A DNA stretch of 64,000 bases from an uncultured Microbacteriaceae bacterium (GCA_934661165.1 CAKUJB010000001.1:1889-65888), one strand, 5' to 3'. Shown: positions 1 to 35,226, numbered from the stretch's first letter. Notes: a model not told the origin generated them from the letters alone. Made by a program: numbers and translations.

Positions 1-625
1 CCGCGTCGACGACCTGCGGCACGAGCGCGAAGGTGCCGACGAGCGAGTCGGCGGGATCGCGCAGGAAGGACACCCGGTGTCCCGCCGCCTCCATCCCCGT
101 CGCGACGACGGCGTCGACGCCGCTGACCTCGAGCGCGACGGCCTCCGCGACGGTCGTCGCCGTCCCGACGAGTCGGATGCCCGCGACGCGCGCGCGATCG
201 ACGAGCGAGTCGGAGGGCGTGCCGTAGACGAGGCTGAGCACGGCGGGCCGCGCCTCGAGGACGGCATCGAGCTGCTCGTCCGCGCTCGGCAGGTATCGCG
301 CGGGCTCGGCGGGCACCTCGAGCCCGAGCTCGTCGAAGAACGGGCGCATCGCGGCGACCGCGGCCGCGAGGTCCGTCTGCCCCGGTCGGACCTCGTCGCC
401 GGTCGGCAGCCAGAGGTTGAGCGCGAAGGGTCGCGCCGTCGCCGCACGAAGCGCGCCCGCGGTCTCGAGGATCCGTTCCGGGTCGTAGCCGTACAGCCCG
501 TAGGAGCCCAGTCCCCCGAGCTCGCTCACGGTCGCCGTGAGCTCGATGGAGGACAGCCCGCCGAAGGCGCCGAGGACGATCGGCGAGTCGATCCCGAGGA
601 GCTCGGTCAGCTGCACCGCGCTCAT
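1..625 (-). CDS. nitronate monooxygenase / NPD-like FMN oxidoreductase (N-terminal ~208 codons; C-terminus lies beyond the window edge)
   Basis: Own minus-strand translation from ATG at 625-623 gives MSAVQLTELLGIDSPIVLGAFGGLSSIEL...VATGMEAAGH, which are NMO-family motifs. It is missing from the ORF track because it runs off the window. ATGA start/stop overlap with the upstream DUF488 gene. Confidence 0.75.
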   Translation of the reverse strand, partial: MSAVQLTELLGIDSPIVLGAFGGLSSIELTATVSELGGLGSYGLYGYDPERILETAGALRAATARPFALNLWLPTGDEVRPGQTDLAAAVAAMRPFFDELGLEVPAEPARYLPSADEQLDAVLEARPAVLSLVYGTPSDSLVDRARVAGIRLVGTATTVAEAVALEVSGVDAVVATGMEAAGHRVSFLRDPADSLVGTFALVPQVVDA

Positions 626-984
626 GCCCGAGCGCCGTCGACATAGTCCCGGAGCACGGCCGCGTGGTTGATCTCGGGGTCGCGAGCGGCATACAGCAGC
701 GTCGTCGTCGCGTGGGCATCGATGAGTGCGTGGAGCTCGTCGACGGCCGGGTTGCCGTCGAGCTCAATGCGGTAGCGGCCGGCGAACTCCTCGAGCCGCG
801 CCGGGTCGTGGTCCCACCACGTCCGCAGCTCGGGACTCGGCGCGACGTCTTTGAGCCAGTGGTCGAGCGCGGCGCGCTCCCGCGAGACGCCCCGCGGCCA
901 CAGCCGATCGACGAGCACCCGGCAGCCGTCCGCTGGATCGGGACCCGAGTAGATCCGCTTGATCCGCACGGTGTGGGCCGTCAT
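622..984 (-). CDS. DUF488 (YeaO-like) family protein
   Basis: ORF 622..1053. The internal ATG at 984 gives MTAHTVRIKRIYSGPDPADGCRVLVDRLWPRGVSRERAALDHWLKDVAPSPELRTWW, typical of DUF488. The upstream 23-codon Arg/Gly-rich extension is unlikely to be coding. Confidence 0.8.
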   Translation of the reverse strand: MTAHTVRIKRIYSGPDPADGCRVLVDRLWPRGVSRERAALDHWLKDVAPSPELRTWWDHDPARLEEFAGRYRIELDGNPAVDELHALIDAHATTTLLYAARDPEINHAAVLRDYVDGARA

Positions 985-1080
985 GGCGCGCCTCCTGCCT
1001 CGGGTGCCCCGATGCTCCGAGCGTACTCCCGCGGGGACCGGCCCTGGCGGCACGCGTCCTCAGGTCACCGGCGCCAAACG

Positions 1081-1127
1081 GCTCCGGCCCCTGAACTGGA
1101 CTGAGCGTCCTGTTCAGGGGCCGGAGC
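1081..1127 (-). terminator. 16-bp perfect stem-loop; probable ancestral terminator of tRNA-Leu, now also downstream of the island operon
   Basis: GCTCCGGCCCCTGAAC (1081-1096) and GTTCAGGGGCCGGAGC (1112-1127) are exact reverse complements with a 15-nt loop. The stem abuts the attL repeat. On the minus strand it is followed by CGTTTGG. Confidence 0.6.
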
Positions 1128-1155
1128 ACCACTGTGCGCGAGGGGGGACTTGAAC
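1127..1155. repeat. attL: 29-bp direct repeat (duplicated 3' end of tRNA-Leu)
   Basis: CACCACTGTGCGCGAGGGGGGACTTGAAC at 1127-1155 is identical to 7515-7543. The flanking bases differ on both sides. Confidence 0.9.
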
Positions 1156-1312
1156 TCGATCAGCCTTTCTCGCGCACAGATTCCGCGAAGTGCGTTCTGG
1201 CCCGTGTTTCCGGGCATCGCGGCCGATGCGCGTCCTGACGGAGTACGTCCAGCTACACGTCTCCGCAGAGCTGGTAGCACATGGTCTAGCACGTGAAAAC
1301 TGCCGCCGTGAG

Positions 1313-1331
1313 AGGGGAACTGACTTCCCCT
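1313..1331 (-). terminator. short stem-loop overlapping the stop codon of the last island gene
   Basis: AGGGGAA (1313-1319) pairs with TTCCCCT (1325-1331) around a 5-nt loop. On the minus strand a TTTT run follows about 12 nt downstream. Only 7 bp, so weak. Confidence 0.3.
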
Positions 1332-2466
1332 ATGAACTGCCCAGCGAGTCGCCCGCACCCGAGGACTTCTCTTGTTGATATTGCTCCAGCGGATCGAGAA
1401 GTTTGATGTCAGTGACTTCGGTGACGCCCTCTTCGACACTGAGCTTGATCATGACCCGGACCGCTGCCTCGTCCTGCGCATGGAAGTAGTGATCATTCCA
1501 GTCCTCAAGGAGTTCCACGCCAGAACCCTCATCCATGAACCAGTCGGACTTAGCGACGAAACCCTCGAAGTAGACCGTTGCTTCCGCGGTCGCGATTACT
1601 AGGTCACCGCTCGTAACAAGCTCAAACTCAGACTGCTGCTCGATATCGGAGATCGTGGCGTCCTCGAGTCCCGGAGCCGAGAACTGAACGAACTCGGGGT
1701 AGTCGTAGTCACCGCCGTACACCATTTGCAGCGACACGCTCTCTCCCACGAGAGAAAGGAGTGCATTCGTTGCTGCTGTCGCGAGGGCTGCCTCACGTTC
1801 CGCTTGCTCTGTTGCCGCCACAAGAGCGTCAACTTGTTGCTTCGCCGCCCAGACATTCTTCGCCAGCTGCACGGTTGCATGCTCGCCGGGTAGGCGGAGC
1901 ACATCTTCGACAAGATCCGGGTGGAAGCCCTTCCCGTCCTCGGCAAGGAAGCCAGTATCTGCAGTCACGAAAATCACCGTGTCCTCGGCGCGGCTGGCGG
2001 CTGCGCGGCTGAGCAGGCTCTCCCAGATCACGGCGTCGCGGAAGCCAGCCGATGCATGATCAGTACCGACCGCGTGAAACGGTCGGCGACGCTCAAGGTC
2101 GCGCGCCACGAGTCTCTCAAGCGCGATGCCTGGCACAGGAGCGAGCGCAACCCCGGGCCGACTGAGCAAGTCGTCAAAGTTTGCATCGATCTGCTCCGCG
2201 AGCCGGTCGAACGCCTCCCTTAGCTGACTCGCTGGCAGGTGCATCGACGCGCCCAGCCGTGCTGCGCGATCGACCACTGCATCCGCTTCTCCACGGGTTA
2301 CGAGTAGCTCCTCGCGCTGCTGACGTCGGAGTTCCTGAAGCACAACAACCGGATAGACCACTTCGCAGTGGCCTGCCGAGGCGAGGGTGAGCAGGGCTGG
2401 TCCGGCCCCGGACATCAGCCATAGATCGCGATGGACAGCATTGGAGTCGAGAACGACGACGATCAT
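1330..2466 (-). CDS. PIN-like (DUF4935-type) nuclease-domain protein with uncharacterised acidic C-terminal domain
   Basis: 378-aa ORF. The N-terminus MIVVVLDSNAV ... VVLQEL ... IFVTADTGF shows the D/E/D acidic pattern of PIN-like folds. The C-terminal ~150 aa is acidic with no motif I recognise. ATGA overlap (2463-2466) with the PP2C gene. Confidence 0.7.
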   Translation of the reverse strand: MIVVVLDSNAVHRDLWLMSGAGPALLTLASAGHCEVVYPVVVLQELRRQQREELLVTRGEADAVVDRAARLGASMHLPASQLREAFDRLAEQIDANFDDLLSRPGVALAPVPGIALERLVARDLERRRPFHAVGTDHASAGFRDAVIWESLLSRAAASRAEDTVIFVTADTGFLAEDGKGFHPDLVEDVLRLPGEHATVQLAKNVWAAKQQVDALVAATEQAEREAALATAATNALLSLVGESVSLQMVYGGDYDYPEFVQFSAPGLEDATISDIEQQSEFELVTSGDLVIATAEATVYFEGFVAKSDWFMDEGSGVELLEDWNDHYFHAQDEAAVRVMIKLSVEEGVTEVTDIKLLDPLEQYQQEKSSGAGDSLGSS

Positions 2467-3431
2467 GGTTGCGCCTCCCTCGGATTGGTACCTGCGGGTT
2501 CAGCGGGCTCATCATCGTTGCTCGTCGAGTCCTGTGCCAGGGCGATCAGGACGAGCGAGCAGTCGTCGTGGGTGCGGGGCACGATGACGTCGCGGAGGGT
2601 TTCGGCGAGTTGCTCGTGCATTGTCTCGGTGGGTAGATCGCGGCAGGCCTGCAGCAGCTTCGAGCAGGCACCAGCCATAGTGCGGGTGCTTCGTATGTAG
2701 AGGGAGGCCTCCGGACCGTCAGACATCATTACGAAGCCCGTCACCGCCCGGGAGGACGTCGTCACCCGGCCCCGGTAGACGCGAATCGAGCCAGCAGCAT
2801 CGCGGGAGGTGATGAACTTCGTTTCGTTGATGAACTCACCGTTGTCGGGGATGCCGAGTGCTCGGACGACCCGAGTTCCGCCCTTGAGGACGTGCTCCAC
2901 ACCGATGACACCGTCGCCGAGGTGCAGCGTGATGAAGCGGTCGCCGCGTACTGCCACCACGAGCAAAGTCGCGGCCAGATCACGGACATCGCACTTGATC
3001 AAGGGTTCAGCGCTGCGGTCGGGTAGGTCGAGCCGGGCTCGGTCGTCGGCGGAGACATCGAGCCCTTTGGCGGCACTCGTGACCAGGGCATTCAGTAGAT
3101 CGGTAGCCAAGCTCGCCCGCAATGTGCCCAGGTTGTTCGTCGCCCGGAACAGTTGATCGAACTGCTGAGCGACCAAGCGCGACGCAAGATCGGCCAGGAT
3201 CTCCGCGCCGTAGTGTGACAACTTCGCCGAGCCTGCGCCATCGGCGAGGGATCCCACCACGGTCCCATCGGAGTCCGCCAAGACCGCAACGTGGTCCTGA
3301 CACGGGACCGAGGCATCAGCGTGAGAGCGCCCCTGATGTCGTGCGGATGCGAAGCGCCACTCGATGGCGTCGAGCGCCTCCTCGCGTGAAGGAGGTTCCA
3401 GTTTGCTCCTCAGAACTTGAAGTCCGACCAT
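2463..3431 (-). CDS. PP2C-family Ser/Thr protein phosphatase (TerY-P triad component, YegK/PphC-like)
   Basis: 322-aa ORF with RHQGRSHADASVPCQD, LADGAGSAKLSHYGA, FVMMSDG and THDDCSLV, the bacterial PP2C_2-type metal-binding Asp motifs. The true ATG at 3431 overlaps the vWA gene end by 22 nt. Confidence 0.85.
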   Translation of the reverse strand: MVGLQVLRSKLEPPSREEALDAIEWRFASARHQGRSHADASVPCQDHVAVLADSDGTVVGSLADGAGSAKLSHYGAEILADLASRLVAQQFDQLFRATNNLGTLRASLATDLLNALVTSAAKGLDVSADDRARLDLPDRSAEPLIKCDVRDLAATLLVVAVRGDRFITLHLGDGVIGVEHVLKGGTRVVRALGIPDNGEFINETKFITSRDAAGSIRVYRGRVTTSSRAVTGFVMMSDGPEASLYIRSTRTMAGACSKLLQACRDLPTETMHEQLAETLRDVIVPRTHDDCSLVLIALAQDSTSNDDEPAEPAGTNPREAQP

Positions 3432-4093
3432 GACTTGATCCCGTCCACGTCGATCGGGACGCCGTCACCCGGCGTCGACTGCGAGACCCGAGACACCGAG
3501 GCGCTCAGCCACGAGAAGAAAGACTGGAAGTTGAGACCCTGAAGCTTGAACGCCGGGCGTGGAGCGCTGAAGCGGTTCAGGGTTGCCATGTCAGCACTAG
3601 CCCCGATGCCGATCGGGAACACGACGAGCTTCCGGTCTGCGGCAAGCTGCTGGACGCGGCCGACCTGTGCGTCTAGGACCGACGCGGAGCCGGTCGGCTG
3701 CCCATCGGTCATGAGCACGAGCCACGGCTGGTAGTAGTCGACACCGTTGTCCTTGTACGCCTGCTTCCGCTCGTCGAGCAGGTCGAGGGAGAGTTTCACC
3801 GCTTCCCCGAGCGGCGTGTCCCCGGTCGCACGCAGGACCGGCGGCCGCGACTGCGTCGCAACCGTTTGGAAGTCGGTCTCCTTCTGCACGGGGCCGAACG
3901 TGACGATGCTGATCTCGGCACTGTACTTCGCGATCTCGTCCTGGTTGATCGCCTGATAGAAGGAGGCGACGCCGGAGTTGAGCTCCTGGATGGGCGCGCC
4001 GCTCATCGAGCCGGATGCGTCGAGGCAGAGGCTGATTGCGACGCGGGAGGTTGGGTTGTCTACGAGGTCGTCGAGATCGATCAAGCTGGCCAT
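3410..4093 (-). CDS. von Willebrand factor A domain protein (TerY/YegL-like)
   Basis: 227-aa ORF with MIDAS motif LCLDASGSMSG (DxSxS), then GDTPLGEA and LVLMTDGQPT. GAAGGAA RBS lies 7 nt upstream of the ATG. Confidence 0.88.
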   Translation of the reverse strand: MASLIDLDDLVDNPTSRVAISLCLDASGSMSGAPIQELNSGVASFYQAINQDEIAKYSAEISIVTFGPVQKETDFQTVATQSRPPVLRATGDTPLGEAVKLSLDLLDERKQAYKDNGVDYYQPWLVLMTDGQPTGSASVLDAQVGRVQQLAADRKLVVFPIGIGASADMATLNRFSAPRPAFKLQGLNFQSFFSWLSASVSRVSQSTPGDGVPIDVDGIKSWSDFKF

Positions 4094-4123
4094 GGTTGGT
4101 TCCTTCTGTCGTGTTGGTCCGGT

Positions 4124-5686
4124 CTATCTACCCGCGGAGGCGATAGCAGAGATGATGAGGATCGCGATGAGGATCCCGAAGCCCCATCCGAAGATCGCGC
4201 CCCATGGCACGTTGCTCTTCGCGGGTTGCGGAGTGACCTTGGAGGCGGTCGACGACTTCGTAACCGATGGCGTCGTTTTCGCGAGAGAGGCGTGATGCCG
4301 GCAGTAGCCGCCACGCTCGTCGTGCATCCACTTGGCGGCCATGTAGCCGCACTGCTTGCAGCCGACCTGACGCCAGCAATCGTCGCAGTACTGAGCGCGG
4401 CCGCGGGTCGGTGTGAAGGTTTTGCCGCACACCGGGTTGTTACACTGAATGGCCTGCTTGAGAGACGAGCCGTAGCTCCGGCCGCCGCCCGTCGACGCGT
4501 AGCCACCGGCCCGCGCGGTGGCCCGAACTCGAGGTCGACGGACGTGAAGATCGCAGAAGATGTAGAGGTTCTCCTCAGCAGGGATGAACTTGTTCGTGCA
4601 CCCCTCGTACTTGCATTGCTTCATCTTCCGGCGCGTCGGGAAGATGTCCATGGCCATCGGGTCGTTCCTAAGCATGTTGTCGGCGCTGCTCAGGTAGCCG
4701 TTGAATAACTCTGCCCACTCGGTGGTCGAATACCTCCTCTGAGGTGTGAAGTGGGAGCCGCCCTTCTTGAAGGTCTCTGCGAAGGCCTCTCGGACTTTGT
4801 AGGTCATGTGGTTCCAGATGAAGCCCCACTTGCCAGGGGGAACCACGTCGTCTTTGCCCTCGTAGGCGAAGACGCCTGCCTTGATGTTCTCGGCGGGAGA
4901 GCCGCCGCCGACAGCCGAATAGGGTGGCTTGCCGGGCATCATGATCATGAAGAGCAGCGTCGCGATGGCGAAGTTCTCCATCTCCTGCGTCCGCAGGAAG
5001 GTCTTGAAGTCCTTGCCGCTCACTTCGGGCGGTGTGAAGTTCGCCGTGCCGACGGAGCACGGGTACCCCTCGATCTGGTAGCTGTCGCAGTCGACGAAGT
5101 ACACCTCTGTGGGCGATACCACGAGGATGTTCGCAGCATTGATGTCGCCAAGGATGACCCGGCGGTCGTTCAGGTAGCGGATCTTGTCGAGGATGGTGAG
5201 GCACAGCCTGATGGTGTCCTTCCGGGTCCACCTGGGGAACTTCGTCGGCAGGAGCATCGGCATGAAGACCGATTTGCTCAACTCGACGCCCTTCGCCTGC
5301 GGCATGAGGTACCCGATGAACTCGTTCGACGAGTTAAAGAGGATGGCCTCGGGGAAGCAGATGCCGGCATAGCGGATCGGCTTCGAGATCATGGTTCGCA
5401 GCTTGGCGAGGCGATCACTGGTTATCTTGTCCCGCTTGTAGATCTTCGCGACGTACCCGCTTGCGTTCGTGGTGAAGACCGCTCCTTCGCCACCCTCGGC
5501 GAGCTTCTCAGCGACGACGATCTGGCGCTGCATGGTCCCGTCGTCTGCGACGACAGTCGTGTTGACGCGCGCGCCCTTCGCCACCTGCTCGCCAGGTACT
5601 TCGCCTCGGACTGGCAATACTTTGCCCGGCGCGGCGATGCGTGCCACATGGGCGAAACGCGGGGCTTCTGGAACCGTCATCGTCAT
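4124..5686 (-). CDS. atypical Ser/Thr protein kinase (YegI-like) with Cys-rich Zn-ribbon region and C-terminal transmembrane anchor
   Basis: Kinase motifs: LAEGGEGAVF (Gly loop), YVAKIY (Lys), ILGDINAANILV (catalytic loop), FVDCDS (DFG equivalent), GTANFTPPE (APE-like). Three CxxC/CxxxxC-type clusters are followed by VPWGAIFGWGFGILIAILIISAIASAG. The start is set at ATG 5686 because of the ATGA overlap with the upstream stop; the ORF track start is 5716. Confidence 0.85.
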   Translation of the reverse strand: MTMTVPEAPRFAHVARIAAPGKVLPVRGEVPGEQVAKGARVNTTVVADDGTMQRQIVVAEKLAEGGEGAVFTTNASGYVAKIYKRDKITSDRLAKLRTMISKPIRYAGICFPEAILFNSSNEFIGYLMPQAKGVELSKSVFMPMLLPTKFPRWTRKDTIRLCLTILDKIRYLNDRRVILGDINAANILVVSPTEVYFVDCDSYQIEGYPCSVGTANFTPPEVSGKDFKTFLRTQEMENFAIATLLFMIMMPGKPPYSAVGGGSPAENIKAGVFAYEGKDDVVPPGKWGFIWNHMTYKVREAFAETFKKGGSHFTPQRRYSTTEWAELFNGYLSSADNMLRNDPMAMDIFPTRRKMKQCKYEGCTNKFIPAEENLYIFCDLHVRRPRVRATARAGGYASTGGGRSYGSSLKQAIQCNNPVCGKTFTPTRGRAQYCDDCWRQVGCKQCGYMAAKWMHDERGGYCRHHASLAKTTPSVTKSSTASKVTPQPAKSNVPWGAIFGWGFGILIAILIISAIASAGR

Positions 5687-6318
5687 GACTTGCGCAGCCC
5701 GACTCGCTCCCACCACGGCTCCGGCGTTGCCACGGGCGCTGCGGGCGCCACCCTCGAGCTAGCTGCTCTGGGCATGGACGTGCTCTTCGGGCCGTCGGTC
5801 CGAAGCAGATTTGAGAAAGCTTCCACCCGACCGCTTCCCGCTACGCGCGAGACGACCATGGTCTGACCCCTACGAGGGCGGACCGACTCGAACTCGACGA
5901 TGCGTTGGAGGTCCTTCGCGAGAGCTCGGTCCTGGGTGATGAAGTGGAGGTTCGCTTGCGTGCGGAACTTCAGGGCCACTGACAGGAGGACGGCATCGGC
6001 GAAGGGGTCGTTCGCGTCGCCGGCGACTTCGACCGTGCCGGTCTTGACGAGAGGGATCAGCTTCGCCAGCGTGTACTTTGCACGCTCGGCCAGGCCCTCC
6101 TTTTGAGTAGAACGAGAGTGCTTCACGAGTTCCTCGTGATTCCTCGCCGCGAGGATCAGTCGGCCGGTCCCCGAGAGGCGAGGTATCTCGTGTGACCAGA
6201 ACGTCGCTTCCTTTCCAGCGTCCAAGATGATCTGCTCACCCTTGCGATCGTCACCCTTCCAGCACGCTACGAGGAGGGCCGAGGTATCGAGGAAGATCAG
6301 CGTGCTCGTCCGCGTCAT
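5683..6318 (-). CDS. PIN-domain protein with disordered C-terminal tail
   Basis: 211-aa ORF with TLIFLDTSALL (first PIN Asp), DPFADAVLL and HFITQDRALAKDL (distal Asp), followed by a Ser/Pro/Ala-rich tail. ATGA overlaps at both ends (6315-6318 and 5683-5686). Confidence 0.65.
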   Translation of the reverse strand: MTRTSTLIFLDTSALLVACWKGDDRKGEQIILDAGKEATFWSHEIPRLSGTGRLILAARNHEELVKHSRSTQKEGLAERAKYTLAKLIPLVKTGTVEVAGDANDPFADAVLLSVALKFRTQANLHFITQDRALAKDLQRIVEFESVRPRRGQTMVVSRVAGSGRVEAFSNLLRTDGPKSTSMPRAASSRVAPAAPVATPEPWWERVGLRKS

Positions 6319-7130
6319 GCCACGTCCCCGCTCGATCCGTACCCGAGGATTTTGCTCCCGGTCGCGGACGCCGTCTCGGCCTCTCCCCAGGCCGCAATCT
6401 TGCTGGTCGGGGGTACGGTCGTCGTTCCGGGGGCAGCAGGGCTGACTGTGGCGGCCAGTACGGCTCCGACGAAGCCGAGCGCCTTCGACCGAGGCTGGGC
6501 CGGAGCACTCCCCGGAGACAGTGTCGACGCCTGAGTGTGCATCTGAAAGCGAAGCTTGGATATCCGACGCTGGGGTCGAGGAGCAGAAAGGTCCAGCAGG
6601 CGTCTGTGTATCCGTGCTGTGTTATTCACGATCTTGGAGGAGCTGCTCATCGCAGAGTTGCCCGTGCGAGCCTTAGACGCAGCTTGTTTCCGGACAACCG
6701 CATTGCCGATGTAGGTCGAGCGACTCAGGCCGTAGCCGTACAGCCTCTGGTTGCGTCCGGTGACGACACCTGCCGTCCAGCTCCGACTTGAGCCGCTCCC
6801 TGATCGGAACCTGCTGCCCATCCTGTTGACGACTTTGTTCCCGATGTCCTGGGCCCGGGACTTCGAGTAGCCCTTCGCCTGGTACTGACCGGCGATCTTG
6901 CCGGCCACGAACGACCGAGTGTTTGCCGAGTAGGAAGCGCCCGAGGTTCTTCCAACTGAGGTGCCGTGGCTCGAAGACGAGATCCGGCCGGACCCCCTCT
7001 TGCTCCGTCCCGAAGAACTCCCGCCGCTGTAGCTCGACCGCGACGAGTTCGAGCCGAACCTGCCCCGGCCGTAGCTAGATCTTCCGCCCCCATAGCTACG
7101 ACCGCCTCCCCCACCAGACCTGGCCATCAC
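6315..7130 (-). CDS. Ser/Gly/Arg-rich low-complexity protein (RSYG/RGG-like repeats), unknown function
   Basis: 271-aa ORF starting MMARSGGGGGRSYGGGRSSYGRGRFGSNSSRSSYSGGSSSGRSKRGSGR, with one hydrophobic stretch ALGFVGAVLAATV. GTG at 7130 or ATG at 7127, preceded by AGGGGG. The stop is coupled (ATGA) to the next gene. No homology-type motif, so the coding status rests on length, coupling and position. Confidence 0.55.
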   Translation of the reverse strand: MMARSGGGGGRSYGGGRSSYGRGRFGSNSSRSSYSGGSSSGRSKRGSGRISSSSHGTSVGRTSGASYSANTRSFVAGKIAGQYQAKGYSKSRAQDIGNKVVNRMGSRFRSGSGSSRSWTAGVVTGRNQRLYGYGLSRSTYIGNAVVRKQAASKARTGNSAMSSSSKIVNNTARIHRRLLDLSAPRPQRRISKLRFQMHTQASTLSPGSAPAQPRSKALGFVGAVLAATVSPAAPGTTTVPPTSKIAAWGEAETASATGSKILGYGSSGDVA

Positions 7131-7139
7131 ACCCCCTGA

Positions 7140-7322
7140 TCGAACGTGCTCTTCAGTCTATTGGTGGGCGTAGACATCGGAGCTTGCCGGGCGACCAGCG
7201 ACCTGTCGAGGATCACGCTCGAAGAGCTGCGGCACACGCACGCGACCCTGCTGCGGGCACTCCAGGAGCACCTCAAGGTGGTGGAGGAGCGCCTTGGTCA
7301 CCCAGTATCACCACCAAGATGA
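7140..7322 (+). pseudogene. tyrosine recombinase (phage-type integrase) C-terminal remnant
   Basis: Own translation of the stop-to-stop frame gives ...DLSRITLEELRHTHATLLRALQEHLKVVEERLGHPVSPPR*. The LRHTHAT and ERLGH boxes of tyrosine integrases are present. There is no start codon, no N-terminal or core domain, and the ORF ends before the catalytic Tyr. Confidence 0.7.
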
Positions 7323-7474
7323 ATATCTAGAGGTAGGTCGCACCGACAGTGCAGAAGCAGCCTGCCAGCTGCCTCGTCGCACTCGTCGCCAGCGGATAAA
7401 GTCCCGCGTCCGAGACCGAATCCGTCCATGAGCGGAGCGTTGCGCAAACCGACGAGCGCATGAAACCGAAATCG

Positions 7475-7508
7475 CTCCTGATCTAGGACCGAAATCCCAG
7501 ATCAGGAG
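7475..7508. repeat. 10-bp perfect inverted repeat next to attR
   Basis: CTCCTGATCT (7475-7484) and AGATCAGGAG (7499-7508) with a 14-nt loop, 7 nt from the attR core. It lies downstream of the tRNA 3' end on the minus strand. Confidence 0.6.
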
Positions 7509-7514
7509 CCATTC

Positions 7515-7543
7515 CACCACTGTGCGCGAGGGGGGACTTGAAC
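7515..7543. repeat. attR: 29-bp direct repeat overlapping the 3' end of tRNA-Leu
   Basis: Identical to 1127-1155. It covers the last 21 nt of the tRNA (7523-7543) plus 8 nt downstream. Confidence 0.9.
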
Positions 7544-7605
7544 CCCCACGCCCTTTCGGGCACTAGCACCTCAAGCTAGCGCGTCTGCCATTCCGCCACC
7601 CGCGC
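7523..7605 (-). tRNA. tRNA-Leu (anticodon GAG)
   Basis: Manual cloverleaf: acceptor GCGCGGG/CTCGCGC (one G-U), anticodon stem CTAGC/GCTAG with loop TTGAGGT, long variable arm TGCCCGAAAGGGCGT, T-arm GGGGG-TTCAAGT-CCCCC, discriminator A. CCA is not encoded. Confidence 0.9.
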
Positions 7606-7645: not shown

Positions 7646-8326
7646 CTACGCGGCGCTCGCCTGCGCCGTCACGAGGATCGGCGAATGATCGCTGCGACCC
7701 CGCCGGAGCGTCTGCACGTCGAGCACCTCGATGCCGCTCGCCGTGACGAAATCGAAGTGGCCCTTGACGATCTTCATAGCCTGGTACGTCCGCTTGTCGC
7801 TGAGCGTCAGGTCGATGCCGCTCCGGCCGAGACGCGCGCCGAGCCGGTTGTGGAACAGCGGGTAGTTGTAGTCGCCGACCATGAGCACGGGCGCTCCCCT
7901 GCCGAGCTGCGAGAGGCGATCGTGGGCGGTCTGGATCTGCAGCCGGCGCAGCGCCGAGCGCGCGGTCGGCGGTGCCGCGTGGAACGAGGCGATGACGAGC
8001 TCCCGGCGGGTGTCCCGCTCCCGCACATGCACGCCGACGAGCCGCTCCCGGGTGCGGTCGAAGACGGCGTCGTGGAGCGACTTTTTGAGCTCGAATGTCG
8101 CGCTCCGGAGCTGCTCGAACCGCTCGTCGCGCACATAGACGGCGAGGGCGAGCGTGTTGCGTCCGGTGTGCTCGGCGAGCCGCAGTCCGCCGATGCGCGC
8201 GGGCAGGCCGACCCGATACGCCTCCTGGACGCAAAGCGCGTCGAGGTCGGGCTCGTTCGCGACGAGCCCGGCGAGTTCCTCTTCGGCGCGGCTGTGGTAG
8301 AGGTTGTAGCTGATCACCCGGATCAC
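7646..8326 (-). CDS. endonuclease/exonuclease/phosphatase (EEP) family protein
   Basis: 226-aa ORF with MIRVISYNLYH..., LMVGDYNYP and RGRSDHSPILV, the EEP-fold catalytic motifs. Confidence 0.8.
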   Translation of the reverse strand: MIRVISYNLYHSRAEEELAGLVANEPDLDALCVQEAYRVGLPARIGGLRLAEHTGRNTLALAVYVRDERFEQLRSATFELKKSLHDAVFDRTRERLVGVHVRERDTRRELVIASFHAAPPTARSALRRLQIQTAHDRLSQLGRGAPVLMVGDYNYPLFHNRLGARLGRSGIDLTLSDKRTYQAMKIVKGHFDFVTASGIEVLDVQTLRRGRSDHSPILVTAQASAA

Positions 8327-8383: not shown

Positions 8384-8872
8384 ATGCAGGACCTGCTCTC
8401 GACCCCTGTCACGACGATCACCGGCGAGTCGACGACGCTCGAGGAGCACGCCGACAAGGTGCTCCTCATCGTCAACGTCGCCTCGCGCTGCGGCAACACC
8501 CCGCAGTACGAAGCGCTCGAGGCGCTGCAGCGCCGCTATCAGGAGCGAGGCTTCACCGTGCTCGGGTTCCCCTGCAACCAGTTCATGGGCCAGGAGCCCG
8601 GCAGCAACGAGAAGATCCTCGACTACTGCACGACGACCTGGGGCGTGACATTCCCGATGTACGCGAAGCTCAAGGTGAACGGGCCCCGCGTCCACCCGCT
8701 CTACGAGCGGCTGCGGACCGTGCCCGACGCCGCCGGCGCGGCGGGACGCGTCGAGTGGAACTTCGAGAAGTTTCTCGTCACCCCCGACGGCGAGGTCCAT
8801 CGGTTCCGCCCGGGCGTGCTGCCGGAGGACCCGGCCATCGTCGGCCTCATCGAGCAGCACCTTCCCAGCTGA
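8384..8872 (+). CDS. glutathione peroxidase family protein
   Basis: Internal ATG at 8384 in ORF 7616..8872 gives MQDLLSTPVTTITGESTTLEEHADKVLLIVNVASRCGNTPQYEALE...LGFPCNQFMGQEPG...WNFEKFLV, the GPx signature. Confidence 0.9.
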   Translation: MQDLLSTPVTTITGESTTLEEHADKVLLIVNVASRCGNTPQYEALEALQRRYQERGFTVLGFPCNQFMGQEPGSNEKILDYCTTTWGVTFPMYAKLKVNGPRVHPLYERLRTVPDAAGAAGRVEWNFEKFLVTPDGEVHRFRPGVLPEDPAIVGLIEQHLPS

Positions 8873-12457: not shown

Positions 12458-13324
12458 ATGCTCGCAACGGAGGCGATCTACGCTGACGGCATGCGCACCG
12501 CGACCCTCGGCCCCGCGGCGGTGTCCACCGCGGCGGAGCTGCTGCGCGGACGGCGTGTCGCGGTGCTCACCGGGGCGGGCATCAGCACCGACTCCGGCAT
12601 CCCGGACTACCGTGGCCGCGGGGCCCCCGTGCGCACGCCGATGTCGTTCCAGCAGTTCCGCGGCGACCCCGATGCGCGGCGGCGCTATTGGGCCGGTTCG
12701 CACCTCGGCTGGCGACGCTTCCACGCCGCGACGCCGAACGAGGGGCACCTCGCGATCACCGACCTCGAGCGCGCCGGGCTCGTCGCCGGCGTCGTCACGC
12801 AGAACGTCGACGATCTCCACCTGCGCGCGGGGACCCGCCACGTCGTCGAGCTCCACGGCAGCATGCACACCGTCAGCTGCCTGCAGTGCGGGCAGACCTT
12901 CGCCCGGCAGGCGATCGCGGAGCGACTCGCGCGCCTGAATCCGTGGCTCGATGATCTCGTCCGGCGTGAGCTCGCCCCGGACGGCGACGTCGACATCGCG
13001 GAGTTCGGGGCGACGGTCGTCCCGGACTGCAGCATCTGCGGCGGGATGCTCAAGCCGGACGTCGTCTTCTTCGGCGAGTACGTGCCGCCGACGACCTTCG
13101 ATGCGGCAGCCGCGCTCGTCCGAGGCGCCGACGCGCTCCTCGTCGCCGGCTCGTCGCTCGTGGTCAACAGCGGCATCCGCATCGTGGAGCTCGCTCGCCG
13201 CCGCCGCGCGCCGATCGTCATCGTCAACCGCGGCGAGACCAAGGCCGACGACCGCGCCTCAGTGCGCCTCGAGGGCGGCACGACGGAGATCCTCACGGCG
13301 CTGCGCGATCAGCTGCTGCCCTGA
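12458..13324 (+). CDS. cobB: NAD-dependent protein deacylase, Sir2 family
   Basis: GAGISTDSGIPDYRG, TQNVDDLH, and Zn-binding CLQCG...CSICGG. The alternative start at 12491 cannot be excluded. Confidence 0.88.
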   Translation: MLATEAIYADGMRTATLGPAAVSTAAELLRGRRVAVLTGAGISTDSGIPDYRGRGAPVRTPMSFQQFRGDPDARRRYWAGSHLGWRRFHAATPNEGHLAITDLERAGLVAGVVTQNVDDLHLRAGTRHVVELHGSMHTVSCLQCGQTFARQAIAERLARLNPWLDDLVRRELAPDGDVDIAEFGATVVPDCSICGGMLKPDVVFFGEYVPPTTFDAAAALVRGADALLVAGSSLVVNSGIRIVELARRRRAPIVIVNRGETKADDRASVRLEGGTTEILTALRDQLLP

Positions 13325-29370: not shown

Positions 29371-30789
29371 CTAGCCCACCGAGCCTTCCATGTTCATCTC
29401 GATGAGTTTGTTGAGCTCCATCGCGTACTCCATCGGCAGCTCGCGCGCGATCGGCTCGATGAAGCCGCGCACGATCATCGCCATCGCCTCGGCCTCCGGG
29501 ACGCCGCGCGACATGAGGTAGAACAGCTGCTGCTCGCTCACCCGCGACACCGTCGCCTCGTGGCCGAGCTGCGCGTCGTCGACGCGGATGTCGATCGCCG
29601 GGTAGGTGTCGGAGCGGGAGATCGTGTCGACGAGGAGCGCGTCGCACACGACGGAGTTCGCGGCGTGATGCGCGCTCGGCTCGATGCGCACCTCGCCGCG
29701 ATAGCCGGTGCGACCGCCACCGCGTGCGATGGACTTCGAGACGATCGAGGACTGCGTGTGGGGGGCGAGGTGGATCATCTTCGCGCCCGCGTCCTGGTGC
29801 TGTCCGGGGCCGGCGAAGGCGACGGAGAGTGTCTCCCCCTTCGCGTGCTCGCCGACGAGGTACACCGAGGGGTACTTCATCGTCACCTTCGAGCCGATGT
29901 TGCCGTCGACCCATTCCATGGTCGCGCCCTCGTGGGCAACGGCGCGCTTCGTGACGAGGTTGTAGACGTTCGTCGACCAGTTCTGGATGGTCGTGTAGCG
30001 CACCCGCGCATTCTTCTTCACGATGATCTCGACGACGGCCGAGTGCAGCGAGTCCGACTTGTAGATCGGCGCCGTGCAGCCCTCGATGTAGTGCACGTAC
30101 GAGCCCTCGTCGGCGATGATGAGCGTCCGCTCGAACTGCCCCATGTTCTCGGTGTTGATCCGGAAGTAGGCCTGGAGCGGGATCTCGACGTGGACGCCGG
30201 GCGGGACGTAGACGAAGGAGCCGCCCGACCACACCGCGGTGTTGAGCGCGGCGAACTTGTTGTCGCCCGACGGGATGACGGTGCCGAAGTACTCGTCGAA
30301 GAACTCCGGATGCTCGCGCAGCGCCGTGTCGGTGTCCATGAAGATGACACCCTGCTTCTCGAGCTCCTCGTTGATCTGGTGGTAGACGACCTCGGACTCG
30401 TACTGCGCCGCGACCCCGGCGACGAGCCGCTGCCGCTCGGCCTCGGGGATCCCGATGCGCTCGTACGTCTCCTTGATCTCGTCCGGCAGCTCCTCCCAGG
30501 TCGCCGCCTGGCGCTCCGTCGAGCGGACGAAGTATTTGATGTTGTCGAAGTCGATCGCCGACAGGTCGGCGCCCCACGAGGGCATCGGTTTGCGCTGGAA
30601 GAGCGCGAGGCCGCGGAGTCGCTGCTTGAGCATCGACTCCGGCTCCTCCTTGAGGGCCGAGATGTCTCGGACCACCGCCTCGCTCAGGCCGCGCTTCGCG
30701 CTGGCGCCGGCGACATCCGAATCGTGCCAGCCGAACTCGTACTGCCCAAGGGCGTCGATCTCCGGCCGATCGATGAGTACATCGGTCAT
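29371..30789 (-). CDS. sufB: Fe-S cluster assembly protein SufB
   Basis: 472 aa with ...[25 protein letters not shown]...[23 protein letters not shown]. Confidence 0.95.
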
Positions 30790-30914
30790 GTGTTCAACTC
30801 ACTCTCCACCGAAGCGAACTATCAGGTCCGTGTCGGTATTCCGCCTTGAACGGCGGCACTAAAATCGTAGAGCACCCAGCTGGGTCCCAGGTGCGAGACA
30901 GAAGGGTTGGGGGC

Positions 30915-31814
30915 ATGAGCGGCTTCTGGACGTCGGCGACCGGAGTCCTGCGCCGGGGTCTCGTGCCCATCGCCTGGCTCAACCTCATCGGCAATGTGCT
31001 CATCATCGCGACGGGCGGCGCGGTCCGGCTCACCGGATCGGGTCTCGGCTGCTCGACCTGGCCGATGTGCACCGACACCTCCTGGGTGCCGGTGGCCGAG
31101 GATGGCATCCACGGGATCATCGAATTTGGCAACCGGCTCATGTCGCCCGTGCTCCTCGTGCTCGCCGCACTCGCGCTCCTCGGGACCTGGGGTCTGCGTC
31201 ACACGCGCCGCGACCTGTGGGCGCACGCGGTCGTCATAGCCGTCGGCGTCGTCGGCCAAGGCGTGCTCGGCGGCATCGTCGTGCTCACGCAGCTCGACAT
31301 GTCGACGGTCGGCTGGCATTACCTCATCTCCGCCGCGCTTGCCGGGGTCTGCGCCTCCTTCGTGCTGCGCGCCGGCCGGCCGGCGGGGCCTCGCGAGCGC
31401 GCCCTCCCCCGGTGGCTCGTCATCGCGACGCACGTCGCGAGCCTCCTGCTCGCGGCCGTCGTCGTCGGCGGCGTCGTCACGACCGGCAACGGCCCGCACT
31501 CCGGGGACGCCGAGGTCATCCGGGACTCGGCCGCATGGGAGCAGCTCGTCCACATTCACGCGTGGCTCAGCTACGCATTCGTGGCCGTCGTGCTCGTCCT
31601 GCTCGTCGGCGGACTCGCCGTGCGCGTGCGTCGCTACGTGATCGCGGTCCTCGCGGTCGTGCTCGTCGTCGGGATCCAGATCGCGGTCGGCATCATCCAG
31701 GCGCGGCTCGGCATCCCGCCGCTGCTCGTCAGCATTCACATGGTGCTCGCGGCGGTCACCGTCGCGCTCGGCGTCGTCCTCGTCGACGCGACGAAGCGGC
31801 CCGCGAGCCGCTGA
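30915..31814 (+). CDS. ctaA: heme A synthase (COX15/CtaA family)
   Basis: ATG at 30915 gives MSGFW..AVRLTGSGLGCSTWPMC...EFGNRL...IHMVLAAV. Multi-pass membrane protein. Confidence 0.88.
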   Translation: MSGFWTSATGVLRRGLVPIAWLNLIGNVLIIATGGAVRLTGSGLGCSTWPMCTDTSWVPVAEDGIHGIIEFGNRLMSPVLLVLAALALLGTWGLRHTRRDLWAHAVVIAVGVVGQGVLGGIVVLTQLDMSTVGWHYLISAALAGVCASFVLRAGRPAGPRERALPRWLVIATHVASLLLAAVVVGGVVTTGNGPHSGDAEVIRDSAAWEQLVHIHAWLSYAFVAVVLVLLVGGLAVRVRRYVIAVLAVVLVVGIQIAVGIIQARLGIPPLLVSIHMVLAAVTVALGVVLVDATKRPASR

Positions 31815-34115: not shown

Positions 34116-35207
34116 ATGGCCGCTGTCGTGCAGGGCACGCGATCCGCGCCGCGCGCGCAGAGCACCCTCGTCTCGGGCCGGCTGCCGAACTGGGCGCCAT
34201 GGGCGATCCTCGCCGGCTCGATCGTCCTCTCCGTCGCGTTCTTCGCGATCGTCGCGGCGTCGAACGGGAGCGAGTTCTCCTTCGCCGGCGCCGCGGTCGT
34301 CGCAGCCGTCGTCGACGTCGTCGCGATGGTGACGATCTCGGCGCTCGCCGAGGGGCGCCGCCGCGCGACCGACCGGTTCGTCACCGCGATCGTCATCGGC
34401 GCATTCCTCATCGCCATGGCGCCGCTCGTGTCGGTCACCTGGACCGTCATCGCCGCCGGACTCCCCCGCTTCGACCTCGAGTTCTTCACCCACTCGATGC
34501 GCAGCGTCAACGGGCCGGGCGGCGGCGCGCTGCACGCGATCATGGGCACGCTCCAGATCACGCTCGTCTCGACGCTCATCTCGGTGCCGATCGGGCTGCT
34601 CACGTCGATCTACCTCGTCGAGTACGGGCGGGGCCGGCTCGCCCAGGCGATCACCTTCCTCGTCGACGTCATGACCGGAATCCCCTCGATCGTCGCGGGC
34701 CTCTTCGCCTTCGCGCTGTTCACAGTGATCGTCGGGCCGCGGGCGCAGTCGGGGCTCGCCGGGGCGATCGCGCTGAGCGTGCTCATGATCCCCGTCGTCG
34801 TGCGCTCGAGCGAGGAGATGCTGCGGATCGTGCCGAACGAGCTCCGCGAGGCCTCCTACGCGCTCGGGGTGCCGAAGTGGGCGACGGTCATGAAGGTCGT
34901 GCTGCCGACCTCCATCGCCGGCATCGCGACGGGCGTCGTGCTCGCGATCGCCCGCGTCATCGGCGAGACCGCGCCGCTGCTGCTCGCGGCGGGGTTCACG
35001 AACAACATGAACTACAACATGCTCGAGGGTCCGATGCAGACCCTCCCCCTCTTCGTCTACACGAGCTACCGCTCGTCGGGCGGCATGATCCAGGAGGACA
35101 TCGACCGGGCCTGGACCGGCGCGCTCGTCCTCATCCTCATCGTGCTCGCCCTCAACCTGATCGCCCGGCTCATCGCGAAGCTCTTCGCGCCGAAGACCGG
35201 CCGCTGA
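34116..35207 (+). CDS. pstA: phosphate ABC transporter permease PstA
   Basis: 363 aa with [14 protein letters not shown] (EAA loop). Follows pstC. Confidence 0.92.
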
Positions 35208-35226
35208 CCGCACCAAGGGATCCGAT

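What the first reader, a model, noticed from the sequence alone, without database searches (positions are those of the whole stretch)
1127..7543. Genomic island inserted into the 3' end of tRNA-Leu(GAG), bounded by a perfect 29-bp direct repeat
CACCACTGTGCGCGAGGGGGGACTTGAAC occurs at 1127-1155 and at 7515-7543. The second copy comprises the last 21 nt of the tRNA plus 8 nt downstream, which is the classic att duplication left by a tyrosine integrase. The enclosed 6.4 kb is clearly AT-richer than the flanks. Hand counts of single 60-nt lines gave ~53% (1381-1440) and ~57% (4621-4680), versus ~62% (8581-8640) and ~80% (12481-12540). The island contains none of the housekeeping genes that fill the rest of the window.
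Basis: seen in the sequence. Interest (0 to 1): 0.7.

Follow-up and report, generated by a model that had tools for sequence, protein, structure and literature searches.

The report
Decayed tRNA-Leu island carrying defence-like genes
A 6.4-kb piece of foreign DNA was inserted into the end of a leucine tRNA gene in a Microbacteriaceae chromosome and can no longer move because its integrase gene has decayed; it is an ordinary kind of genomic island, and it carries a kinase/phosphatase/vWA signalling module with two PIN-type nucleases that is probably an anti-phage system.

Summary
The 29-bp sequence occurs exactly twice (1127-1155 and 7515-7543). It covers the last 21 nt of tRNA-Leu(GAG) (minus strand, 7523-7605) plus 8 nt downstream. 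The enclosed 6.36 kb has 62.6% GC against 71.3% for the rest of the window, and it is the window's only tetranucleotide outlier.

The closest available genome, a Microbacteriaceae MAG, has the empty site: EEP gene, tRNA-Leu, about 210 bp, then DUF488. A tyrosine-integrase pseudogene lies next to the tRNA-proximal repeat, at about 7200-7399. Only about 65 C-terminal codons remain. They carry a frameshift and a TAG stop where the catalytic tyrosine should be, so the island is fixed in place.

The cargo is one minus-strand operon:
- a protein with a conserved core of unknown function;
- a PIN-like protein;
- a Zn-ribbon, membrane-anchored Ser/Thr kinase;
- a TerY/YegL-like vWA protein;
- a PP2C phosphatase;
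- a PIN_12 protein.

The first five genes are 89.6% identical in DNA to a cassette found on another integrative element. More distant versions sit in conjugative elements, beside IS elements and inside a defence island.

Verdict: a real but ordinary tRNA-linked genomic island. Its cargo is a moderately interesting, uncharacterised variant of the TerY-P triad.

The parts
7523..7605 (-). tRNA-Leu(GAG), intact. This is the integration target (attB). Its last 21 nt lie inside the direct repeat.
   Evidence: ARAGORN; Rfam RF00005, 53.1 bits, full-length model match.
7515..7543 (.). tRNA-proximal copy of the 29-bp direct repeat (attL core): 21 nt of the tRNA 3' end plus 8 nt downstream.
   Evidence: Exact match; 0 of 100 shuffles gave a match.
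1127..1155 (.). Distal copy of the 29-bp direct repeat (attR core): the displaced 3' fragment of the tRNA.
   Evidence: Exact match. It sits within a 72-nt imperfect repeat, 1098-1169 against 7486-7557, 75% identical.
1081..1127 (-). Host terminator-like hairpin that followed the tRNA before the insertion. It now follows the distal repeat and lies just before DUF488.
   Evidence: Inverted repeat I2, 21-nt arms, 95% complementary. A hairpin sits at the same position after the tRNA in empty-site locus L001.
7470..7513 (-). Island-borne hairpin followed by a T-rich tail. It now follows the tRNA and resembles the host hairpin, so it looks like a replacement terminator supplied by attP.
   Evidence: Terminator-like site 7509->7474 on the minus strand; inverted repeat I5; alignments.
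7200..7399 (+). Tyrosine-integrase pseudogene. Only about 65 C-terminal codons remain (RHTHATLL...ERLGH...). There is a frameshift near 7304, a TAG at 7328-7330 at the catalytic-Tyr position, and a second TAG at 7334-7336.
   Evidence: PHROG_1 integrase E=2.4e-5 and phrog_7685 E=9.3e-5. Phage_integrase is the top Pfam hit, profile positions 121-156 of 172, E=0.011, below the cut-off. tblastn of the stitched frames hits annotated integrases over residues 12-76, E down to 2e-7. In the alignment to the Paenibacillus phage Neutron integrase, the first stop falls on the Y of the TYSHV motif, the expected catalytic-Tyr position.
6315..7130 (-). First gene of the cargo operon: a Ser/Gly/Arg-rich protein with an approximately 80-aa core that is largely invariant. 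Function unknown.
   Evidence: A homologue sits at the same position in 6 cassettes. Conserved core in alignment A3. No Pfam, NCBIfam, PHROG or PADLOC hit. dN/dS is 0.62 against L081.
5683..6318 (-). PIN-like protein of 211 aa, the predicted nuclease partner of the triad.
   Evidence: Invariant E63, D101, D104, D108 and D130, near-invariant D11, and a near-invariant C-terminal WW in 44 homologues. AlphaFold2 model with pLDDT 78.6. The best PDB fold matches are mostly known PIN-type proteins (SMG6/EST1A PIN domains, FEN/T5 exonucleases), with modest TM-scores of 0.36-0.41. Database sources name homologues 'PIN domain-containing protein' and 'FCF1'. It lies immediately upstream of the kinase in all 12 informative loci.
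4124..5716 (-). YegI-like Ser/Thr kinase with three C-terminal Cys/His zinc-ribbon-like motifs and a C-terminal transmembrane helix. The likely start is at 5686 (520 aa).
   Evidence: 28% identical to E. coli YegI over the kinase domain, E=5e-24. Weak Pkinase hit. phrog_37888 E=1.5e-19. Cys/His motifs and hydrophobic tail. Gene calls of 520 aa in L093 and L094.
3410..4093 (-). TerY/YegL-like vWA protein with a MIDAS motif (DASGS).
   Evidence: Pfam VWA, 37.3 bits against a cut-off of 23.8. 44% identical to E. coli YegL, E=2e-51. phrog_28389 E=3e-52. MIDAS motif read from the sequence.
2463..3431 (-). PP2C-type Ser/Thr phosphatase (PphC-like).
   Evidence: Pfam PP2C_2, 135 bits. 27% identical to E. 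coli PphC, E=1e-14.
1330..2466 (-). PIN_12 protein of 378 aa. Its start overlaps the PP2C stop codon by 4 nt. It lies outside the cassette block shared with the other elements.
   Evidence: Pfam PIN_12, 64.4 bits against a cut-off of 32. Homology with L081 ends at about 2456. A homologue was found only in the near-identical contigs L093 and L094, and in none of the related cassette loci searched.
622..1053 (-). Host flank: DUF488 gene.
   Evidence: Pfam hit. Syntenic in L001 directly after tRNA-Leu.
7646..8326 (-). Host flank: endonuclease/exonuclease/phosphatase-family (EEP) gene upstream of the tRNA.
   Evidence: Pfam hit. 87% identical to the L001 protein and syntenic there.

Best explanation
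Positions 1156-7514 are the remnant of an integrative mobile element. It entered the chromosome of a Microbacteriaceae bacterium by tyrosine-recombinase site-specific recombination. The element's attP carried a copy of the tRNA-Leu(GAG) 3' end. The recombination partner, attB, was the 3' end of the chromosomal tRNA-Leu(GAG) gene. The crossover lay somewhere inside the 29-bp identity. It rebuilt an intact tRNA, whose 3' part and following hairpin are now supplied by the element. It left the original tRNA 3' fragment and the host terminator at the far end, next to DUF488.

The integrase gene later lost about 300 N-terminal codons, and its surviving C-terminal stub picked up a frameshift and stop codons. 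The island therefore cannot excise by its own means.

The island is kept as a single six-gene operon: a conserved-core protein, a PIN-like protein, a membrane-anchored Zn-ribbon Ser/Thr kinase, a TerY/YegL-type vWA protein, a PP2C phosphatase and a PIN_12 protein. The three middle genes (kinase, vWA, PP2C) form a TerY-P-type phosphorylation triad.

Inferred mechanism of the cargo: the vWA, kinase and phosphatase switch senses an infection or stress cue and controls the PIN-type nuclease or nucleases, giving abortive-infection-like defence.

Shown here: the repeats, the tRNA, the composition shift, the empty site, the integrase pseudogene, the gene families, and the presence of the cassette on other mobile elements and in a defence island. 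Inferred: the order of events, the position of the crossover, and the defence function with its wiring.
For: - Exact 29-bp direct repeat, with 0 of 100 shuffles giving a match.
- The repeat is the tRNA 3' end.
- GC of 62.6% against 71.3%, about 8.7 SD below island-sized windows elsewhere, and a tetranucleotide distance of 0.42 against at most 0.135.
- Empty site in L001 with both flanks syntenic.
- Integrase pseudogene beside attL.
- Extended imperfect homology of the two att regions, each with a hairpin after the core.
- Window 2456-7177 is 89.6% identical in DNA to a cassette in L081-L083, which lies next to an intact tyrosine integrase, a TrwC relaxase and an IS.
- The same cassette lies inside conjugative-element genes in L088-L090, beside ISL3 transposases in L085 and L087, and in a GmrSD, DEAD/MZB, MmeI-methyltransferase and SNF2 defence island in L091 and L092.
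- The triad is homologous to E. coli YegL, PphC and YegI.
- Four of the cassette genes are under purifying selection, with dN/dS of 0.11-0.24.
- TerY-P triads are described as defence-associated, and an OB-fold variant is reported to protect against phage (PMC11090510; PMC7699616).
Against: - The empty site is in a different species: EEP is 87% identical but DUF488 only 63%. No strain-level empty allele was found.
- The only other copies of this locus (L093 and L094, over 99.9% identical) also carry the island.
- No excision product or intact relative of this integrase was found.
- The proteins hit no PADLOC defence model, including PADLOC's own TerY model.
- No phage-resistance data exist for this branch of the family. 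E. coli YegI and PphC are known only as a kinase/phosphatase pair (10.1101/819920).
Confidence: 0.88

Rival explanations
1. The island is a still-mobile integrative or mobilisable element, or a phage satellite, that a helper-encoded integrase can excise in trans using the intact 29-bp repeats.
For: Both att cores are perfect, and both flanking arms keep hairpins and imperfect homology. Metagenome contig L094 starts exactly at the core, and L093 carries a different 33-nt sequence upstream of the core. Either could reflect an alternative junction.
Against: The island has no intact integrase, excisionase, relaxase or replication gene. Its own integrase is a stub of about 65 codons with stops. Assemblies often break at repeated tRNA ends, which would explain the contig ends. 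The attL junction was not found anywhere else in the metagenome collection.
Confidence: 0.07
2. The repeat is a leftover of a local partial duplication of the tRNA gene, and the AT-richer genes between the copies are ancestral and not horizontally acquired.
For: Partial tRNA copies do occur downstream of tRNA-Leu(GAG) in other Microbacteriaceae without large inserts: L004 and L011 have copies 157-281 bp away.
Against: L001 has an empty site with conserved flanks. There is a sharp shift in composition and tetranucleotide use exactly at the repeats. An integrase pseudogene is present. The interior is 89.6% identical in DNA to a cassette on unrelated mobile elements.
Confidence: 0.02
3. The cargo is not a defence system. 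It is a housekeeping-type Ser/Thr phosphorylation signalling module, for example a metal or envelope stress response as first proposed for Ter-linked TerY-P triads, that happens to travel on mobile elements.
For: E. coli YegI and PphC are described simply as a kinase/phosphatase pair with no defence phenotype. TerY-P was first linked to tellurite and stress loci (as cited in PMC11090510). There is no PADLOC hit.
Against: The triad is tightly coupled to a PIN-like protein in 12 of 12 informative loci. It recurs on integrative and conjugative elements and inside a restriction/defence island. The first gene of the operon evolves fast, with dN/dS of 0.62. Homologous PHROG families exist, so the genes also occur in phage or prophage genomes.
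Confidence: 0.3

Closest known systems
tRNA-gene-targeting genomic islands and integrative elements mobilised by tyrosine integrases (the P4-type and pSAM2/SLP1-type paradigm)
   Same: It is inserted at the 3' end of a tRNA gene. The direct repeats consist of the tRNA 3' end plus a few downstream bases. The integrase gene abuts one att site with its 3' end facing that site. The composition is atypical, and the island is absent from a related genome. The element supplies the new tRNA 3' end and a terminator-like hairpin.
   Different: The integrase is reduced to a dead C-terminal stub. No excisionase, replication or transfer genes remain. At 6.4 kb the island is very small and is essentially one cargo operon.
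TerY-P triad (TerY-like vWA + PP2C phosphatase + Ser/Thr kinase with a Zn ribbon; Anantharaman et al. 2012, as summarised in PMC11090510), and the Gao et al. 2020 TerY-P defence system
   Same: The three genes are adjacent in one operon. The vWA protein has a MIDAS motif. The phosphatase hits PP2C_2. The kinase has C-terminal Cys/His zinc-ribbon-like motifs. Relatives sit next to restriction and defence genes.
   Different: The proteins do not hit PADLOC's TerY model or any other PADLOC model. The experimentally tested system has an OB-fold on the kinase, whereas this kinase has Zn ribbons and a transmembrane helix. Here the triad is always preceded by a PIN-like gene, and in high-GC actinobacteria also by a conserved-core protein of unknown function. 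I found no description of that arrangement in the searchable literature.
E. coli K-12 yegI / pphC (yegK) / yegL
   Same: There is pairwise homology of all three proteins: YegL 44% identical (E=2e-51), PphC 27% (E=1e-14), YegI 28% over the kinase domain (E=5e-24). YegI is also a membrane protein.
   Different: The gene order differs. E. coli has yegL-pphC, with yegI separated from them by yegJ. E. coli has no PIN-like partner at this locus and the C-terminal region of its kinase differs. The E. coli locus is chromosomal and not flanked by att repeats.

Membership tests
tRNA-linked genomic island / integrative element (tyrosine-recombinase type) | Inserted at the 3' end of a tRNA gene, leaving an intact tRNA | tested here: met
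   tRNA-Leu(GAG) at 7523-7605 is full length by ARAGORN and Rfam. The island begins 8 nt after its 3' end.
tRNA-linked genomic island / integrative element (tyrosine-recombinase type) | Flanked by direct repeats that duplicate the tRNA 3' end (attL/attR) | tested here: met
   29-bp exact repeat, 0 of 100 shuffles giving a match. It extends to 72 nt at 75% identity.
tRNA-linked genomic island / integrative element (tyrosine-recombinase type) | Encodes a functional tyrosine integrase next to an att site | tested here: not met
   Only a pseudogene of about 65 codons remains (about 7200-7399). It has a frameshift and a TAG at the catalytic Tyr. This fits a decayed member, not an active one.
tRNA-linked genomic island / integrative element (tyrosine-recombinase type) | Composition differs from the host chromosome | tested here: met
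   GC of 62.6% against 71.3%. Tetranucleotide distance of 0.42 against at most 0.135.
tRNA-linked genomic island / integrative element (tyrosine-recombinase type) | Absent from the same site in related genomes (empty attB) | tested here: met
   L001 has EEP, tRNA-Leu(GAG), 210 bp, then DUF488. Only one such genome was available, and it is a different species.
tRNA-linked genomic island / integrative element (tyrosine-recombinase type) | Excision or circularisation | not testable with these tools
   This needs reads or PCR across attP and attB. No junction was found in the metagenome contigs.
TerY-P triad in the broad sense (Anantharaman 2012) | Adjacent genes for a TerY-like vWA protein, a PP2C phosphatase and a Ser/Thr kinase | tested here: met
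   Pfam VWA and PP2C_2 hits above their cut-offs, and a weak Pkinase hit. Homology to YegL, PphC and YegI.
TerY-P triad in the broad sense (Anantharaman 2012) | Kinase fused at its C-terminus to a zinc ribbon | tested here: inconclusive
   Three Cys/His pairs of the zinc-ribbon type are visible: C368/C373...C388/H391, C425/C430...C444/C447 and C453/C456...C472/H474. There is only a marginal CxxC-domain hit, E=0.075. No structure was predicted for this region.
Gao 2020 TerY-P defence system, as modelled in PADLOC | Proteins match the PADLOC TerY-P models | tested here: not met
   No TerY hit for the window's vWA, PP2C or kinase proteins even at E<=10. The library does hold a TerY model, which E. 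coli YegL hits only at E=0.032.
Gao 2020 TerY-P defence system, as modelled in PADLOC | Protects against phage | not testable with these tools
   This needs an experiment.
PIN-domain nucleases | Match to a PIN family profile, or a PIN fold with conserved acidic residues | tested here: met
   The 378-aa protein hits PIN_12 at 64.4 bits against a cut-off of 32. The 211-aa protein has no Pfam hit, but has invariant E63, D101, D104, D108 and D130 and near-invariant D11. Its best fold matches are mostly known PIN-type proteins (SMG6/EST1A PIN domains, FEN/T5 exonucleases), with Foldseek probabilities of 0.97-1.0 for the top and PIN-domain matches and TM-scores of only 0.36-0.41. The assignment is therefore firm for the first protein and moderate for the second.

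The most novel reading that the evidence does not exclude
The conserved four-gene core is a distinct, uncharacterised abortive-infection or defence system. It consists of the PIN-like protein, the Zn-ribbon membrane Ser/Thr kinase, the TerY/YegL-type vWA protein and the PP2C phosphatase. In high-GC actinobacteria it is preceded by a fast-evolving protein with a largely invariant core of about 80 aa. In this reading a TerY-P phosphorylation switch gates a dedicated PIN nuclease, and the conserved-core protein acts as sensor or substrate. The cassette moves as a unit between integrative elements, conjugative elements and defence islands, across hosts with locus GC contents of about 41-68%.
Probability: 0.45. 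Interest if true: 0.55.

Novelty: new member of a known kind. Interest (0 to 1): 0.35.

Why it matters
The island is a textbook case, and a precise one: exact att cores, an element-supplied tRNA 3' end and terminator, an empty site in a relative, and an integrase caught in the middle of decay. That makes it a clean annotation and a good example of how a mobile element becomes fixed while its cargo is kept.

The cargo is the more useful lead. It links the poorly understood YegI/PphC/YegL-type TerY-P triad to a dedicated PIN-like nuclease, on several kinds of mobile element and in a defence island. This gives a concrete, testable effector hypothesis for a module whose function is still unknown, even in E. 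coli.

Tried and rejected
1. Hot-spot idea. In more distant Microbacteriaceae the EEP gene and tRNA-Leu(GAG) are 0.1-7 kb apart, with the tRNA inverted. I suspected other islands at this site. No long-range duplication of the tRNA 3' end was found in any of 28 loci, so this is unsupported. Only short-range copies (157-281 bp) exist, in L004 and L011.

2. Search for an intact relative of the integrase. Scanning viral contigs with the stitched remnant gave only distant integrases, 43-53% identical over about 50 aa. The integrase next to the related cassette in L081 is unrelated beyond the catalytic motif.

3. Search for the attL junction (22-mer) in JGI metagenome contigs: 0 hits.

4. Pfam on the frame-stitched integrase did not extend the alignment past LGH. 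tblastn against phage and plasmid records did.

5. PADLOC gave only marginal matches (E >= 0.003), below any meaningful threshold and none to TerY-P, for the seven island ORFs scanned. NCBIfam was uninformative.

6. The Anantharaman 2012 paper could not be retrieved, so the original TerY-P definition is cited second-hand from PMC11090510.

7. A literature search for TerY + PIN domain + PP2C, and one for tRNA-Leu islands in Microbacteriaceae, each returned nothing.

8. The consensus scan found no sigma-70-like promoter in the island. The scan was not designed for actinobacterial promoters, so this says little.

Full report
**Observation**

The 29-mer CACCACTGTGCGCGAGGGGGGACTTGAAC occurs exactly twice in the window, at 1127-1155 and 7515-7543. 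There is no third copy even at three mismatches, and none of 100 dinucleotide-preserving shuffles gave a match. The only tRNA in the 64 kb is tRNA-Leu(GAG), on the minus strand. ARAGORN places it at 7522-7605 and Rfam at 7523-7605 (53 bits, full-length model match).

Measured across the whole island:
- Island GC (1156-7514) is 62.6%, against 71.3% for the other 57.6 kb.
- Island-sized windows elsewhere average 71.2 +/- 1.0%, with a minimum of 69.2%.
- The island's tetranucleotide L1 distance from the rest is 0.42, against 0.07-0.135 for every other window.
- The drop and the recovery coincide with the two repeat copies.

**Empty site**

A protein-anchored scan of one genome per species showed that the host belongs to the Microbacteriaceae. 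The query was the endonuclease/exonuclease/phosphatase-family (EEP) gene at 7646-8326, which lies upstream of the tRNA. In the closest genome, L001 (MAG DATMFQ010000025.1), the EEP protein is 87% identical. The gene order there is GPx, EEP, tRNA-Leu(GAG), about 210 bp, DUF488, then the same downstream region as in the window. Alignment A1 shows the L001 tRNA followed by its own terminator hairpin and then DUF488, with nothing corresponding to window 1156-7514.

Two metagenome contigs over 99.9% identical to the window (L093 and L094) carry the island. No strain-level polymorphism was seen.

**Attachment sites**

Beyond the perfect 29-bp core, the two regions stay similar: 72 nt at 75% identity, 1098-1169 against 7486-7557. 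Read in the direction of the tRNA, each core is followed by a GC-rich hairpin.
- The host hairpin (1081-1127; 21-nt arms, 95% complementary) now lies at the far end of the island, next to DUF488.
- An island-borne hairpin with a T-rich tail (7470-7513, scored terminator-like) now follows the tRNA.

The element therefore supplied the tRNA's present 3' end and a replacement terminator-like hairpin. Established descriptions of tRNA-targeting integrative elements report the same arrangement (background knowledge). On the island side of the distal core, 1156-1180 retains a degenerate resemblance to the tRNA body. It includes CTGTGCGCGAG, which is complementary to the acceptor 3' strand.

**Integrase**

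No integrase ORF is present, but the plus strand at 7146-7322 reads ...ITLEELRHTHATLLRALQEHLKVVEERLGH... The evidence that this is an integrase remnant is:
- The top Pfam hit is Phage_integrase, profile positions 121-156 of 172, E=0.011, below the curated cut-off.
- PHROG_1 'integrase' scores E=2.4e-5 and phrog_7685 'integrase' scores E=9.3e-5.
- After a frame change near 7304 the reading continues SITTKMNI*R*VAPTVQKQ. The stitched 78-aa sequence hits annotated phage and plasmid tyrosine integrases across residues 12-76, at 40-47% identity and E down to 2e-7.
- In a pairwise alignment with the Paenibacillus phage Neutron integrase, the first in-frame TAG (7328-7330) falls on the tyrosine of TYSHV, the motif that holds the catalytic tyrosine in this family, and the second TAG falls on the following histidine.

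Upstream of about 7180 the integrase reading frame is gone. The island thus keeps only about 65 of roughly 370 integrase codons, and those are broken. It cannot excise using its own enzyme.

**Cargo**

All the island's genes are on the minus strand, and most consecutive pairs overlap by a few bases. In order from the tRNA end:
- 6315-7130: a Ser/Gly/Arg-rich protein with no family hit.
- 5683-6318: a 211-aa protein with no family hit.
- 4124-5716: a kinase with a weak Pkinase hit. It has three Cys/His zinc-ribbon-like motifs and a C-terminal hydrophobic helix.
- 3410-4093: a vWA protein with a DASGS MIDAS motif.
- 2463-3431: a PP2C_2 phosphatase (135 bits).
- 1330-2466: a PIN_12 protein (64 bits).

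The vWA protein, phosphatase and kinase are homologues of E. coli YegL (44% identical, E=2e-51), PphC (27%, E=1e-14) and YegI (28% over the kinase domain, E=5e-24). This is the TerY-P triad as summarised in PMC11090510: a TerY-like vWA protein, a PP2C phosphatase and a Ser/Thr kinase with a C-terminal Zn ribbon. That paper describes the triad as associated with restriction systems, and notes that an OB-fold variant protects against phage (see also PMC7699616). YegI itself is an active, membrane-embedded kinase (10.1101/819920).

The window proteins do not match PADLOC's TerY model or any other PADLOC model. E. coli YegL only grazes the TerY model, at E=0.032. This is therefore the YegL branch of the family, not the experimentally tested branch.

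The 211-aa protein is PIN-like:
- 44 homologues share invariant E63, D101, D104, D108 and D130 (in GDxNDPFAD and TQD motifs), near-invariant D11, and a near-invariant C-terminal WW.
- Database sources name two homologues 'PIN domain-containing protein' and 'FCF1'.
- An AlphaFold2 model (pLDDT 78.6) has best PDB matches that are mostly known PIN-type proteins (SMG6 and EST1A PIN domains, FEN/T5 exonucleases). TM-scores are modest at 0.36-0.41.

The first gene encodes a real protein. Homologues at the same position in five elements share a largely invariant core of about 80 aa (SANTRSFVAGKIAGQYQAKGYSK...AGVVTGRNQGLYGYGLSRSTYIGNAVVRKQA), flanked by variable low-complexity tails.

**The cargo is a mobile cassette**

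Window 2456-7177, which is exactly the first five genes, is 89.6% identical in DNA to metagenome contigs L081-L084. The homology edges lie 47 bp upstream of the first start codon and at the PP2C stop codon. In L081 the cassette lies beside an intact but unrelated tyrosine integrase, a partial tRNA-like sequence, an IS and a TrwC relaxase.

More distant versions of the cassette lie in four other settings:
- Beside ISL3 transposases, in Tessaracoccus lacteus (L085) and in L087.
- Between conjugation and plasmid-type genes (TrbL, an M23 peptidase, ParB, Prim-Pol, ArdC) in L088-L090.
- Inside a GmrSD, DEAD/MZB-helicase, MmeI-methyltransferase, SNF2 and UvrD defence island in L091 and L092.
- In metagenome loci recovered by a second scan.

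The order PIN-like, kinase, vWA, PP2C is kept in all 12 loci long enough to judge, at locus GC contents of about 41-68%. The conserved-core gene is limited to the high-GC actinobacterial subset. PIN_12 occurs only in the window's own lineage.

Between the window and L081, dN/dS is 0.11-0.24 for the four core genes and 0.62 for the first gene.

**Interpretation**

Three points refine it.
- It is a decayed, immobilised remnant.
- It is mosaic: an integrase stub, a travelling five-gene cassette and a PIN_12 gene.
- Its cargo is a TerY-P-type phosphorylation triad, hard-wired to a PIN-like protein.

The defence function is inferred from context and from the literature on related triads. It has not been shown. 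The main rival for the cargo is a stress-signalling role. Rivals for the island itself are residual mobility in trans and a non-mobile local tRNA duplication. Both are unlikely, for the reasons given in the rival explanations.

**Novelty and score**

tRNA-linked islands with att repeats are a well-known kind, and this is a new, cleanly delimited member. The cargo architecture was not found described in the searchable literature, and it gives a testable effector hypothesis for YegI/PphC/YegL-type modules. Overall interest is 0.35.

Noticed in passing
L011 3900-4200 and L004 10950-11140 (Rhodoglobus / Microbacteriaceae MAGs): Downstream of tRNA-Leu(GAG) lie one or two extra 20-23-nt copies of the tRNA 3' end (GGGCGTCAAGTCCCCCTTCGCGCAC). 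Each is preceded by a conserved segment of about 100 nt that contains the hairpin CCGGxCCATTGCG...CGCAATGGACCGG. They look like att scars or miniature elements at the same tRNA.
   Followed up: partly
L004 10760-10870: A tandem array of GGAAGGTTTCGGAAGGTC-like units lies between the tRNA-Leu scar and the EEP gene.
   Followed up: no
L093 1-33 (metagenome contig 99.95% identical to window 1-7543): Upstream of the 29-bp core, the contig carries 33 nt (GTCGAGATTCGCGGCGCGAGGGGGTCGAGGTCA). This is neither the tRNA-Leu body nor the island arm of attR. It could be an alternative junction or an assembly chimera at the repeat. Contig L094 starts exactly at the core.
   Followed up: partly
window 6315-7130 (-): The first cassette gene has a largely invariant core of about 80 aa with no match in Pfam, NCBIfam, PHROGs or PADLOC. 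It evolves much faster than its neighbours (dN/dS of 0.62 against 0.11-0.24). In Tessaracoccus the core is partly duplicated and the protein has an extra C-terminal domain.
   Followed up: partly
L001-L080 (Microbacteriaceae loci): Only the closest relative (L001) has tRNA-Leu(GAG) in the same orientation as the EEP gene. In Rhodoglobus, Salinibacterium and related genomes the tRNA is inverted and lies 0.1-7 kb away, so this neighbourhood has been rearranged within the family.
   Followed up: partly
L081 15150-15241: Just beyond the intact integrase of the related element there is a partial tRNA-like T-arm and acceptor sequence (GGCTTCGAATCCCACTCGGGGCACA) that ARAGORN does not call as a tRNA. 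It is probably that element's own att site, at a different tRNA.
   Followed up: no
window 30001-31000 and 35001-36000: Two 1-kb bins have lower GC (64.6% and 66.6%) than the window average of 71%. They were not examined.
   Followed up: no
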